From assembly GCF_003018115.1 (NCBI RefSeq), contig NZ_CP027457.1: a stretch of 64,000 nt of DNA; one strand, written 5' to 3'. Position numbers: made by a program. Shown piece by piece: positions 30,001 through 33,000 of the stretch; positions within the stretch are counted from its first letter, which is position 1, and the number at the start of each line of letters is the position of its first letter. The DNA comes from Escherichia coli. GTDB lineage: Bacteria; Pseudomonadota; Gammaproteobacteria; Enterobacterales; Enterobacteriaceae.

Positions 30001-33000
30001 CGGGCTACGGCGCGGAAGCGATTGAAGATGACGCTAAACGCCGCGAGCGCCAGCAGGAAACCGCCGTCGCTACGATGAAGCGCTTCCGCTGGCAGGCGAT
30101 TGTCGCACTGGCGGTGGGTATCCCGGTAATGGTCTGGGGGATGATCGGCGATAACATGATGGTCACCGCTGACAACCGCAGCTTGTGGTTGGTTATCGGC
30201 CTGATAACCCTGGCAGTGATGGTTTTCGCCGGCGGCCATTTTTACCGCAGTGCATGGAAAAGCCTGCTGAACGGTGCGGCGACGATGGATACGCTGGTGG
30301 CGCTGGGTACGGGTGTGGCGTGGCTCTATTCGATGAGCGTCAACCTGTGGCCGCAGTGGTTCCCGATGGAAGCGCGGCATCTTTACTATGAAGCCAGTGC
30401 GATGATTATCGGTCTGATTAATCTCGGTCATATGCTGGAAGCGCGCGCACGTCAGCGTTCTTCAAAGGCGCTGGAGAAATTACTCGATTTAACTCCGCCG
30501 ACGGCGCGCCTGGTTACTGACGAAGGTGAAAAAAGCGTGCCGCTGGCGGAAGTTCAGCCAGGCATGCTACTGCGCCTGACGACGGGCGACCGCGTGCCAG
30601 TAGATGGCGAGATTACCCAGGGCGAAGCATGGCTGGATGAAGCGATGCTGACGGGCGAACCTATCCCGCAGCAAAAAGGCGAAGGCGATAGCGTCCATGC
30701 CGGGACAGTGGTACAGGACGGTAGCGTTCTGTTTCGCGCCAGTGCGGTTGGCAGCCATACCACGTTATCAAGGATTATTCGTATGGTGCGCCAGGCCCAG
30801 AGCAGCAAGCCAGAAATCGGTCAGCTGGCGGATAAAATCTCAGCCGTATTTGTGCCGGTAGTAGTGGTGATTGCGCTGATCAGTGCGGCAATCTGGTATT
30901 TCTTTGGTCCGGCACCGCAGATTGTCTATACCCTGGTGATTGCCACCACGGTGCTGATTATTGCCTGTCCGTGTGCGCTGGGGCTGGCGACGCCGATGTC
31001 GATTATTTCCGGCGTCGGGCGGGCGGCTGAGTTTGGCGTGCTGGTGCGGGACGCCGACGCGCTGCAACGCGCCAGTACACTCGATACCGTCGTGTTCGAT
31101 AAAACCGGGACGCTGACCGAAGGGAAGCCGCAGGTTGTCGCAGTGAAAACATTTGCTGATTTTGACGAAGCGCAGGCGCTGCGTCTGGCGGCGGCACTGG
31201 AACAAGGTTCCAGCCATCCGCTGGCACGGGCGATCCTCGATAAAGCAAGCGATATGCAGCTGCCGCAGGTCAACGGTTTCCGCACATTGCGCGGGCTGGG
31301 CGTGAGCGGTGAAGCTGAAGGTCATGCGTTATTGCTGGGCAATCAGGCGCTGTTAAATGACCAGCAAGTTGATACTAAAGCGATTGAAGCAGATATTTCA
31401 GCTCAGGCATCGCAAGGGGCAACGCCTGTGCTGCTGGCGGTTGACGGGAAAGCGGTAGCCCTGCTGGCTGTACGCGATCCATTGCGTAGTGATAGCGTGG
31501 CGGCGCTGCAACGCCTGCACAAAGCGGGATATCGTCTGGTGATGTTGACCGGGGATAACCCAACCACCGCCAATGCGATCGCCAAAGAAGCCGGGATTGA
31601 TGAGGTGATAGCCGGGGTGCTGCCGGACGGTAAAGCCGAAGCGATCAAACGTCTGCAAAGTGAAGGACGTCAGGTGGCAATGGTGGGCGACGGCATTAAC
31701 GATGCGCCAGCGCTGGCCCAGGCGGATGTCGGCATTGCGATGGGGGGCGGTAGTGATGTTGCCATTGAAACCGCGGCGATTACCCTGATGCGCCATAGCC
31801 TGATGGGCGTTGCGGATGCGCTCGCTATTTCCCGCGCAACGCTGCGCAACATGAAGCAGAACCTGCTCGGCGCGTTTATCTACAACAGTATCGGTATTCC
31901 GGTCGCCGCCGGTATTTTGTGGCCGTTTACTGGAACACTGCTTAACCCGGTAGTTGCCGGAGCGGCAATGGCGCTCTCGTCGATTACCGTAGTGAGTAAC
32001 GCCAACCGGTTGCTGCGGTTTAAACCGAAGGAATAAGTACGTCATTGCGGATGCGCTGCTTTAGGGCGGCGCATTTGGCATTGACGCATGACTGCCGGAT
32101 GCGGCGTGAACGCCTTATCCGGCCTACGGTTCAGGCACAGGTTTGTAGGCCTGATAAGACGCGTAAGCGTCGCATCAGGCAATGGTGCTCGGATGCCGGA
32201 TGCGGCGTGAACGCCTTCTCCGGCCTACGGTTCAGGCACAGGTTTGTAGGCCTGATAAGACGCGTAAGCGTCGCATCAGGCAATGGTGCTCGGATGCCGG
32301 ATGCGGCGTAAACGCCTTATCCGGCCTACGGTTCAGGCACAGGTTTGTAGGCCTGATAAGACGCGTAAGCGTCGCATCAGGCAATGGTGCTCGGATGCCG
32401 GATGCGGCGTGAACGCCTTATCCGGCCTACGAGATGAAGCGATGTTTTGGCCTTACGCGACCTTTTTTGCACGCTCTTCACGGCGTGCCAAATATTCAGC
32501 CACTGTTTCAATCCGTCCCAATTCTTCCTGGGTGCGCATGTTGTTTTCAACTTCCCAAAGATCAACTGCCGCCTGGAGGTTTAGCCAAAAATCGACTGTG
32601 GTATCAAAAACTTTCGCCAGACGGAATGCCATTTCAGTGGTGAGTTTACGATTATTATTGATCAGTGTACTGACGCTATTACGATGAACATGCAGCAACT
32701 CTACTAACTCATTGATTTTCAAAGCGATCTGTTCCGGATATTCATAGAGAAGAATATCTCCGGGTGTCGTCGGTTTTCTTGTTGCCTGTTTCATAGTTTT
32801 TAACTGTTGCTTCCCTGTGAATAGCGATACAAGAACATACTGAATCATACAAACACATTAAACAAGTCCCCAACTCCATTTGCGCCATCCCTCCCCGCGC
32901 GCTAGCATGATATTTCACAAAGGGAGGTCGTATGGATCTGTTGTACCGGGTAAAAACGCTTTGGGCCGCGCTGCGCGGTAATCATTACACCTGGCCTGCC

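What the first reader, a model, noticed from the sequence alone, without database searches (positions are those of the whole stretch)
32090..32435. Head-to-tail array of ~3.3 copies of a 101-bp REP-containing unit downstream of copA
Three near-identical units in tandem (single-base differences such as ttatcc versus ttctcc) create the chain of overlapping ORFs in the six-frame track. Such arrays vary in copy number between strains and can affect mRNA stability or act as recombination substrates. The copy count here could be under-assembled.
Basis: seen in the sequence. Interest (0 to 1): 0.3.

Follow-up and report, generated by a model that had tools for sequence, protein, structure and literature searches.

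The report
Ordinary BIME-2 REP array after copA
The repeat is a textbook E. coli "BIME-2" element: seven small palindromes (REPs) in alternating orientation between the ends of the copA and ybaQ genes. Its copy number differs between strains, so it is real but ordinary and already well described.

Summary
Tandem Repeats Finder reports 32093-32431, period 101, 3.4 copies, 98% matches and no indels.

- **Anatomy:** each 101-bp unit is a Y-type REP (34 nt, + strand), a 17-nt linker, a Z2-type REP (36 nt, - strand) and a 14-nt linker. That makes 7 REPs (4 Y, 3 Z2) in the 416-bp spacer between the convergent genes copA and ybaQ. This is the defining BIME-2 architecture.
- **Independent classification:** Rfam's naRNA4 model, built on the Y+Z2 pairs of REP325, matches all three pairs full-length at 81-89 bits.
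- **Variation between strains:** complete E. coli genomes carry 0, 1, 3, 5, 7, 9, 11 or 15 REPs here, always in 101-bp steps. K-12 has 5.
- **Age:** one unit with the same linkers is already present in E. albertii and E. whittamii.
- **Likely role (inferred):** a shared 3'-UTR hairpin block acting as a partial terminator and mRNA stabiliser, and a gyrase site. Units would be gained and lost by in-register recombination or slippage.
- **Assembly:** the copy count cannot be verified without reads. Two BL21(DE3) assemblies differ by one unit.

Verdict: already known, low interest.

The parts
29532..32036 (+). copA (Cu+-exporting P-type ATPase, 834 aa). Its 3' end faces the array.
   Evidence: ORF. 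The homologous loci are annotated copA in RefSeq.
32040..32086 (.). Non-canonical 'head' palindrome 3 nt after the copA stop, with no GTAG/CTAC. Probably a degenerate REP-like unit or the ancestral copA 3' hairpin.
   Evidence: RNA fold gives -29.9 kcal/mol (+ strand, z -6.05) and -23.9 (- strand). There is a weak sub-threshold naRNA4 hit over 32046-32124 (34-39.5 bits). Its core is present in every allele, including the REP-free B2 type. It sits at the same position as a REP-like palindrome in Citrobacter.
32094..32127 (+). Y-type REP no. 1 (GCCGGATGCGGCGTGAACGCCTTATCCGGCCTAC, ending in CTAC)
   Evidence: -21.3 kcal/mol.
32128..32144 (.). 17-nt linker GGTTCAGGCACAGGTTT between the CTAC/GTAG ends. 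It recurs at 32229-32245 and 32330-32346.
32145..32180 (-). Z2-type REP no. 1 (GCCTGATGCGACGCTTACGCGTCTTATCAGGCCTAC on the - strand)
   Evidence: -21.4/-21.9 kcal/mol.
32181..32194 (.). 14-nt linker AATGGTGCTCGGAT between the REP feet. It recurs at 32282-32295 and 32383-32396.
32195..32228 (+). Y-type REP no. 2, variant with C at 32218 (TTCTCC). This breaks the stem pair next to the internal bubble.
   Evidence: -17.5 kcal/mol.
32246..32281 (-). Z2-type REP no. 2
   Evidence: naRNA4 hit at 32249-32326, 89.3 bits.
32296..32329 (+). Y-type REP no. 3, loop variant with A at 32310 (GTAAAC)
32347..32382 (-). Z2-type REP no. 3
   Evidence: naRNA4 hit at 32350-32427, 87.1 bits.
32397..32430 (+). Y-type REP no. 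4, the terminal partial unit. It lies 22 nt from the ybaQ stop codon.
32453..32794 (-). ybaQ (HigA-family antitoxin-like regulator, 113 aa), convergent with copA
   Evidence: ORF. RefSeq annotation of the homologous loci.

Best explanation
The feature is a BIME-2 element (bacterial interspersed mosaic element, type 2). It is an extragenic array of 7 repetitive extragenic palindromes. Four are Y-type on the + strand and three are Z2-type on the - strand. They alternate and are joined by 17-nt and 14-nt linkers, which gives a 101-bp tandem period. The array fills the spacer between the 3' ends of the convergent genes copA and ybaQ. This much is shown.

The following is inferred from the literature on this class. 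The array is transcribed as part of the copA and/or ybaQ 3' UTR. Its string of about -21 kcal/mol hairpins then blocks 3'->5' exonucleases and stabilises the upstream mRNA. It also causes partial, largely Rho-dependent attenuation of read-through, which insulates the convergent transcripts from each other. At the DNA level the Y REPs are preferred DNA-gyrase sites.

The array grows and shrinks in whole 101-bp units. The mechanism would be unequal homologous recombination or replication slippage between units, possibly helped by the REP-associated transposase TnpA_REP (RAYT). This produces the strain-to-strain copy-number series.
For: **Anatomy and architecture**
- Anatomy.
- Independent typing: Rfam RF02564 (naRNA4, the Y+Z2 pair of REP325) matches all three pairs full-length (1-77/77) at 81-89.3 bits, against a gathering score of 59.5. 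Both stems are identical to the consensus and only the linker differs.
- The z-type foot TGCC|TGAT, stated by Ton-Hoang et al. to occur in z but not y REPs, is present in the - strand hairpins and absent from the + strand ones.
- REP325 in MG1655 has the same architecture: period 100, with Y 34, linker 17, Z2 36, linker 13.
- There is no IHF consensus in the spacer, so it is not BIME-1.

**Copy-number series**
- Spacers of 57, 113, 214, 315, 416, 517, 618 and 820 bp correspond to 0, 1, 3, 5, 7, 9, 11 and 15 REPs.
- Different counts occur on each flanking haplotype, which implies recurrent change.

**Age**
- E. albertii and E. whittamii carry a Y REP at +58 followed by near-identical linkers (1-2 substitutions) and a Z2 REP.

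**Structure**
- The spacer RNA folds far better than shuffles, with z -11.3 on the + strand and -10.4 on the - strand. Single hairpins are about -21 kcal/mol on either strand.
- There is no hairpin-plus-U-tract terminator in the spacer.
- K. pneumoniae has a canonical intrinsic terminator at the equivalent place after copA, which fits a 3'-end role for this region.

**Literature**
- BIME-2 definition and copy-number variability between strains: PMC3333891.
- Gyrase cleavage enriched in BIME-2, preferring y over z2: PMC6379681.
- REP325 acts as a partial Rho-dependent terminator plus stabiliser, and REPs between convergent genes are associated with higher expression of both genes: bioRxiv 10.64898/2026.03.23.713779.
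Against: No expression, 3'-end or gyrase data for this locus were available. copA and ybaQ do not appear in the relevant texts or held supplements, apart from one RNA-seq row showing no significant change of copA in a REP325 experiment.

About a quarter of sampled genomes lack the array entirely (B2-type allele), so it is dispensable.

The named linker motifs (S, s, l, r) of the original BIME classification could not be checked because the figures are not held.
Confidence: 0.88

Rival explanations
1. The array is real, but the number of units in this assembly is wrong. It could be collapsed or expanded, so the '3.4 copies' would be an assembly artefact.
For: The array (339 bp) is longer than a typical short read. 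Two complete assemblies of the same lab strain BL21(DE3) differ by exactly one identical unit at this locus: NC_012971.2 has 7 REPs and NZ_CP081489.1 has 9. No complete genome carries an allele identical to the window's (best 99.3%).
Against: The three full units here differ pairwise at 32218 and 32310, which anchors an assembler. 7-REP alleles occur in many independent complete genomes, including E. coli C, the BL21 lineage, 33F4 and E100341. The BL21 difference may be genuine lab-lineage change, since the two records differ by about 60 kb in length.
Confidence: 0.1
2. The array is selfish or neutral DNA with no local function. It would be seeded by RAYT-type mobilisation, with its size drifting by slippage.
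For: It is absent from the B2-type allele, from PCN033 and from all non-Escherichia genera examined, without loss of copA. Copy number ranges freely from 1 to 15 REPs. REP effects are reported as weak and context-dependent.
Against: A unit with near-identical locus-specific linkers has been retained since before E. coli, E. albertii and E. whittamii diverged. The Z2 REPs and both linkers are invariant across the window's copies, and both point differences fall in Y REPs, in the loop or next to the bubble. Other genera place a palindrome or an intrinsic terminator at the same position after copA.
Confidence: 0.25
3. The units are genes for naRNA4-like small RNAs. These would bind HU and bridge cruciforms to condense the nucleoid.
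For: Five Rfam naRNA4 hits lie above the gathering score. Qian et al. 2015 (PMC4550694) reported that naRNA4 from REP325 binds HU and condenses DNA.
Against: The Rfam model is in effect a Y+Z2 REP-pair model. It also hits an unrelated REP pair at 39488-39565 and matches both strands here. The linker differs from that of naRNA4. The 2026 preprint, co-authored by the group that proposed the model, found that REP325 and naRNA4 do not measurably compact the nucleoid and that REP-REP contacts are not HU-dependent. No promoter-like site lies in the spacer.
Confidence: 0.04
4. The overlapping ORFs in the array encode a real repeat-containing protein or proteins.
For: ORFs of 40-134 aa span the array on both strands.
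Against: The 101-bp period is not a multiple of 3, so each unit is read in a different frame. The ORFs occur symmetrically on both strands. The region varies from 0 to 7 units between strains. No CDS is annotated there in any of the RefSeq records examined.
Confidence: 0.01

Closest known systems
BIME-2 family of E. coli (Gilson/Bachellier classification, as summarised in Ton-Hoang et al. 2012, PMC3333891)
   Same: Built from y and z2 REPs in alternating orientation with short linkers. Occurs as tandem copies, extragenic at gene 3' ends. Copies within a locus are nearly identical, and copy number at a locus varies between strains.
   Different: Nothing of substance. I could not assign the 17-nt and 14-nt linkers to the named S/s/l/r motifs.
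The same locus in E. coli K-12 MG1655 (copA-ybaQ spacer, 508560-508874)
   Same: Same position, same head hairpin, same linkers, same unit.
   Different: K-12 has 2 full units (5 REPs, 315-bp spacer) and the window has 3 (7 REPs, 416 bp). They carry different point variants.
REP325 / naRNA1-6 (yjdM-yjdN BIME-2 of MG1655)
   Same: Y 34 nt and Z2 36 nt with almost identical sequence, a 17-nt linker on the GTAG side, and a period of 100 against 101. All pairs match the Rfam naRNA4 model.
   Different: The linker sequences differ and one linker is 13 nt rather than 14. REP325 lies between tandem genes of one operon, whereas this array lies between convergent genes. REP325 has 12 REPs in K-12.
BIME-1 (also called RIP/RIB; y + z1 with a long L linker carrying an IHF site)
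   Same: Contains a Y REP and is extragenic at 3' ends.
   Different: BIME-1 is single-copy with a long linker and an IHF site. This array has z2 REPs, short linkers and tandem copies, and no IHF consensus in the spacer.
REP-like palindromes after copA in Citrobacter, and the intrinsic terminator after copA in Klebsiella pneumoniae
   Same: They occupy the same position immediately downstream of the copA stop codon.
   Different: Citrobacter has its own one or two palindromes at +3 to +7 and at +55, not this 101-bp unit. Klebsiella has a classical GC hairpin plus T-tract and no REP.

Membership tests
BIME-2 | Composed of y-type and z2-type REPs | tested here: met
   The Rfam naRNA4 model (Y+Z2 of REP325) matches full-length at 81-89 bits, with both stems identical to the consensus. 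Direct comparison with REP325 agrees. TGCC|TGAT is present only in the - strand (z) hairpins, as PMC3333891 states for z versus y.
BIME-2 | REPs alternate in orientation (REP/iREP), each with a GTAG/CTAC tetranucleotide at its foot | tested here: met
   The order is Y+, Z2-, Y+, Z2-, Y+, Z2-, Y+. CTAC follows each Y and GTAG precedes each inverted Z2.
BIME-2 | Occurs as multiple tandem copies, with copies at one locus well conserved | tested here: met
   3.4 copies, 98% matches, no indels.
BIME-2 | Short linkers (S plus one of s/l/r); no long L linker with an IHF site | tested here: inconclusive
   The linkers are 17 and 14 nt, and no IHF consensus WATCAANNNNTTR lies in 32037-32452. This fits on length and on absence of L. 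The named motif sequences are in figures that are not held, so assignment to S/s/l/r was not possible.
BIME-2 | Extragenic, at the 3' ends of transcription units | tested here: met
   The array lies wholly between the stop codons of the convergent genes copA and ybaQ.
BIME-2 | [quoted passage not shown] | tested here: met
   0, 1, 3, 5, 7, 9, 11 and 15 REPs in complete E. coli genomes.
BIME-2 | Bound and cleaved by DNA gyrase, preferentially at y REPs | not testable with these tools
   Reported for the class (PMC6379681). This locus is not mentioned in the text or the held supplements.
BIME-2 | Genome encodes a cognate TnpA_REP (RAYT) that recognises these REPs | not tested
   I did not search the window for a RAYT gene. 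In K-12 the gene (yafM) lies far from this region; that is my own knowledge, not checked here.
naRNA4 (Rfam RF02564) | Sequence and structure match above the curated gathering score | tested here: met
   Five hits between 63.6 and 89.3 bits against a gathering score of 59.5.
naRNA4 (Rfam RF02564) | A discrete HU-bound RNA processed from a transcribed REP array | not testable with these tools
   No expression data. The proposed function is disputed by the 2026 preprint.
BIME-1 | Single y + z1 pair separated by a long L linker with an IHF site | tested here: not met
   Tandem copies, z2-length (36 nt) REPs, 14- and 17-nt linkers, and no IHF consensus.
CRISPR array | Direct repeats separated by unique spacers | tested here: not met
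   The palindromes alternate in orientation, and the two 'spacers' are the same 17-nt and 14-nt sequences in every unit.
Intrinsic (Rho-independent) terminator | GC-rich hairpin immediately followed by a U-tract | tested here: not met
   No terminator-like site lies in the spacer. The nearest T-run (TGTTTTGG) is 15 nt beyond the last REP.

The most novel reading that the evidence does not exclude
The allelic series at this one locus (0, 1, 3, 5, 7, 9, 11, 15 REPs on otherwise near-identical flanks) may act as a natural, rapidly mutable 'rheostat'. REP number would quantitatively set termination, read-through and mRNA stability of copA (copper efflux) and of the convergent HigA-like regulator ybaQ. 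Strains would then differ heritably in copper handling without any coding or promoter change.
Probability: 0.12. Interest if true: 0.4.

Novelty: already known. Interest (0 to 1): 0.1.

Why it matters
As a discovery it matters little. BIME-2 arrays, their Y/Z2 architecture and their copy-number variability between strains were described decades ago, and this locus carries the same element in K-12.

Its practical value is threefold.
- It explains away the spurious ORF chain.
- It flags a locus where assemblies of one strain can disagree by a unit.
- It offers a ready-made natural dose series (0-15 REPs between one well-expressed gene pair). That series could test the still-debated question of whether REP number tunes termination and mRNA stability.

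Tried and rejected
- **Literature on this locus:** a full-text search for ybaQ/copA/REP gave nothing relevant. copA and ybaQ are absent from the texts of the gyrase Topo-seq paper, the REP preprint and the RepRanger paper. The held supplements gave only one uninformative RNA-seq row for copA.
- **An official REP number from the K-12 record:** the RefSeq table served here lists no repeat_region features, neither at this locus nor at REP325. Their absence is therefore uninformative.
- **An identical allele in 5,426 complete genomes:** none found, best 99.3%. The source strain is unidentified. The closest flanks belong to O169:H41 ETEC strains that have 5 REPs.
- **Promoter and terminator scan of the spacer:** no intrinsic terminator, and only one chance-level promoter-like site inside ybaQ.
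- **IHF site as a BIME-1 hallmark:** none in the spacer.
- **Circularity in my first searches:** the Y and Z2 patterns were copied from the window itself, so they could not classify anything. Classification rests instead on Rfam and REP325.
- **A faulty script:** the loose regular expression mis-set some hairpin starts and types. Only the linker lengths and the TRF period were used from it.
- **Whole-spacer MFE folds:** these mix local hairpins with long-range Y:Z2 pairing. I treat them only as evidence of strong structure, not as the true fold.
- **Rejected readings:** coding ORFs, CRISPR and BIME-1, for the reasons given under rivals and membership tests.
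Full report
**Observation.** The array is there as described. Tandem Repeats Finder reports a single array at 32093-32431 with period 101, 3.4 copies, 98% matches and no indels, score 664. The gap-free repeat finder gives start-to-start spacing of 101, 101. The copies differ at two positions only. The other is A for G at 32310 (GTAAAC versus GTGAAC). The flanking ORFs are an 834-aa ORF at 29532-32036 (+) and a convergent ORF whose annotated form is 32453-32794 (-). In the homologous RefSeq loci these are copA and ybaQ. The chain of 40-134-aa ORFs across the array exists on both strands but is mechanical. The period is not a multiple of three, and no CDS is annotated in this spacer in any of the RefSeq records examined.

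**Anatomy.** Each 101-bp unit consists of two different imperfect palindromes in opposite orientation.
- A 34-nt element on the + strand, GCCGGATGCGGCGTGAACGCCTTATCCGGCCTAC, at 32094, 32195, 32296 and 32397.
- A 17-nt linker, GGTTCAGGCACAGGTTT.
- A 36-nt element on the - strand, GCCTGATGCGACGCTTACGCGTCTTATCAGGCCTAC, at 32145-32180, 32246-32281 and 32347-32382.
- A 14-nt linker, AATGGTGCTCGGAT.

The spacer therefore holds seven palindromes, beginning and ending with the 34-nt type. Shuffles of the window give 0.00 expected matches for either element. Upstream, 3 nt after the copA stop, lies a further non-canonical palindrome at 32040-32086. It folds at -29.9 kcal/mol on the + strand and gives only a sub-threshold REP-pair score.

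**Classification by an outside standard.** My two search patterns came from the window itself, so they cannot classify the elements. Three independent lines do.
1. Rfam's RF02564 (naRNA4) models one Y+Z2 hairpin pair of REP325 (PMC4550694; preprint). It matches the three pairs full-length (1-77 of 77) at 81.0, 87.1 and 89.3 bits, against a gathering score of 59.5. Both stems are identical to the consensus and only the linker differs.
2. REP325 itself, fetched from MG1655, has the same plan: period 100, with Y 34 nt, linker 17 nt, Z2 36 nt and linker 13 nt.
3. Ton-Hoang et al. state that the site TGCC|TGAT occurs in z-type but not y-type REPs. It is present in the - strand elements here and absent from the + strand ones.

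The same paper defines BIME-2 as z2 plus y REPs in inverse orientation with short linkers, in multiple tandem copies. Copies at one locus are well conserved, and their number varies between strains. All of these features are met. The BIME-1 hallmark, a long linker with an IHF site, is absent: there is no WATCAANNNNTTR in the spacer. The only feature I could not check is assignment of the linkers to the named S/s/l/r motifs, because the figures are not held.

**Variation between strains.** A search of 5,426 complete E. coli genomes found the locus in essentially all of them. Spans stepped by exactly 101 bp. Counting REPs in fetched loci gave the following.

| Strain | Spacer (bp) | REPs |
|---|---|---|
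| EC958 | 57 | 0 |
| LY180 | 113 | 1 |
| O157:H7 FRIK944 | 214 | 3 |
| MG1655, F9792 | 315 | 5 |
| the window, E100341, BL21(DE3) NC_012971.2, 33F4, E. coli C | 416 | 7 |
| BL21(DE3) NZ_CP081489.1 | 517 | 9 |
| strain 2824 | 618 | 11 |
| YZMc3-1 | 820 | 15 |

The evenly spaced 60-row sample broke down as follows: 14 rows with 0 REPs, 14 with 1, 12 with 3, 11 with 5, one with 7, one longer, and 7 not evaluable. This agrees with the count of 2,217 of 5,426 genomes (41%) covering at least 80% of the query, which corresponds to 3 or more REPs. The window's 7-REP allele is therefore among the rarer, longer ones. Different counts occur on each of the two main flanking haplotypes: 5, 7 and 9 on one, and 1, 5, 7, 11 and 15 on the other. 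I infer from this that units have been gained and lost repeatedly. In the long arrays, identical variant units recur non-adjacently, which points to multi-unit duplications. Within the window, both point differences fall in Y REPs, in the loop or next to the internal bubble, while the Z2 REPs and both linkers are invariant. Across the other alleles most substitutions are also in Y REPs, but a few lie in linkers or Z2 (MG1655, E100341, BL21, 33F4).

**Age and context.** I scanned one genome per species for the copA C-terminus and obtained 47 enterobacterial loci.
- Outside Escherichia, copA is followed directly by ybaP on the same strand, and ybaQ is absent.
- E. albertii and E. whittamii also lack ybaQ. 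They nevertheless carry the head palindrome, a Y REP at exactly +58 from the copA stop, near-identical linkers and a Z2 REP, which is degenerate in E. albertii.
- One unit of this locus-specific BIME-2 therefore predates E. coli. Expansion to 3-7 units happened within E. coli.
- The REP-free allele (EC958, and the GTDB representative strain) carries an intact RelE/ParE-family toxin gene next to ybaQ. PCN033 is a deletion derivative of that allele and keeps only the last codons of ybaQ.
- At the equivalent place after copA, Citrobacter species have their own REP-like palindromes, and K. pneumoniae has a classical GC hairpin plus T7 terminator. I read this positional equivalence as support for a 3'-end role. 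This is an inference.

**How it most likely works.** What is shown is the following.
- The spacer RNA is far more structured than shuffles on both strands: -228 kcal/mol with z -11.3 on the + strand, and -194 kcal/mol with z -10.4 on the - strand.
- Each REP is a hairpin of about -21 kcal/mol on either strand, and the TTCTCC variant is weaker at -17.5.
- On the copA-sense strand a Y and the following Z2 can alternatively fuse into one -53 kcal/mol hairpin. On the ybaQ-sense strand the two local hairpins are the minimum-energy fold.
- There is no hairpin-plus-U-tract terminator and no better-than-chance promoter in the spacer.

What is inferred comes from work on the class.
- REPs block 3'->5' exonucleases and can act as partial Rho-dependent terminators.
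- REP325 does both in its operon.
- REPs between convergent genes are associated with higher expression of both genes, and about 40% of them lie in mapped bidirectional terminators (preprint 10.64898/2026.03.23.713779).
- Gyrase cleavage sites are enriched in BIME-2, prefer y over z2 REPs, and persist when transcription is blocked (PMC6379681).
- TnpA_REP cleaves and recombines BIMEs in vitro, which offers a route to amplification alongside ordinary unequal recombination or slippage (PMC3333891).

No data for this particular locus were found. The preprint also reports no genome-wide half-life effect and strong context dependence. The functional part of the explanation is therefore much less certain than the identity.

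**The naRNA4 hits.** These should not be read as sRNA genes. The model is effectively a REP-pair model. It hits both strands here and also an unrelated REP pair at 39488-39565. The nucleoid-condensing role proposed in 2015 was not reproduced in the 2026 study.

**Assembly caveat.** The three full units here are mutually distinguishable, and 7-REP alleles are common in independent complete assemblies. Both points argue against a collapse. However, two BL21(DE3) assemblies differ by one identical unit. Either real lab-lineage change or miscounting therefore does occur at this locus.

**Verdict.** This is a textbook BIME-2 array at a locus that carries the same element in K-12. I add the Y/Z2 inverted-pair structure, the 0-15 REP allelic series, and the origin of the unit before E. 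coli diverged. It is already known and of low interest. The only mildly attractive open reading is that REP number tunes copA and ybaQ expression, and the natural allelic series would make that easy to test.

Noticed in passing
L008 and L009 (BL21(DE3) NZ_CP081489.1 and NC_012971.2), copA-ybaQ spacer: Two complete assemblies of the same laboratory strain differ by exactly one identical 101-bp unit (9 versus 7 REPs). This is either genuine lab-lineage instability or an assembly miscount.
   Followed up: partly
window 32453-32931; L006 (EC958) 1122-1424: ybaQ is annotated as a HigA-family antitoxin. B2-type strains such as EC958 have an intact RelE/ParE-family toxin gene immediately upstream of it and no REPs. 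The window and K-12 lack the toxin gene, so ybaQ is an orphan antitoxin there. ybaQ is absent altogether from E. albertii, E. whittamii and all other genera examined, and PCN033 has it deleted.
   Followed up: partly
window 4464-25241 (- strand): A single 6,925-aa ORF. Its C-terminal 1,499 aa carry repeated bacterial Ig-like domains (Big_13, E 1e-65), FG-GAP repeats and an RTX calcium-binding repeat. It looks like a giant type-I-secreted repeat adhesin, which K-12 lacks at this position as far as I recall (not checked). The window's only other tandem repeat (period 318, 7786-8727, 71% matches) lies inside it.
   Followed up: partly
window 39485-39568: Another Z2(-)/Y(+) REP pair with a different 14-nt linker, lying between convergent ORFs that end at 39450 and 39583. 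It also scores above threshold on the naRNA4 model at 74.3 bits.
   Followed up: partly
window 50916-50949 (- strand): A solitary Y-type REP with one mismatch to the array's Y.
   Followed up: no
window 33725-33808 (- strand): The small RNA sroB/ChiX (Rfam RF00368, 82.1 bits), between ybaP and ybaK. It is annotated chiX in K-12.
   Followed up: no
window 47488-47552 (- strand): The DnaX programmed ribosomal frameshifting element (RF00382, 96.8 bits).
   Followed up: no
window about 29532-29743 (5' end of copA): The K-12 record annotates a second, joined CDS here: a soluble Cu(+) chaperone made by programmed frameshifting within copA. I did not check whether the slippery site is conserved in the window.
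   Followed up: no
L007 (YZMc3-1), L011 (strain 2824): This locus reaches 15 and 11 REPs in some strains. That is more than the 12-unit maximum quoted for any annotated REP element in K-12. ybaQ is frameshifted in YZMc3-1.
   Followed up: partly
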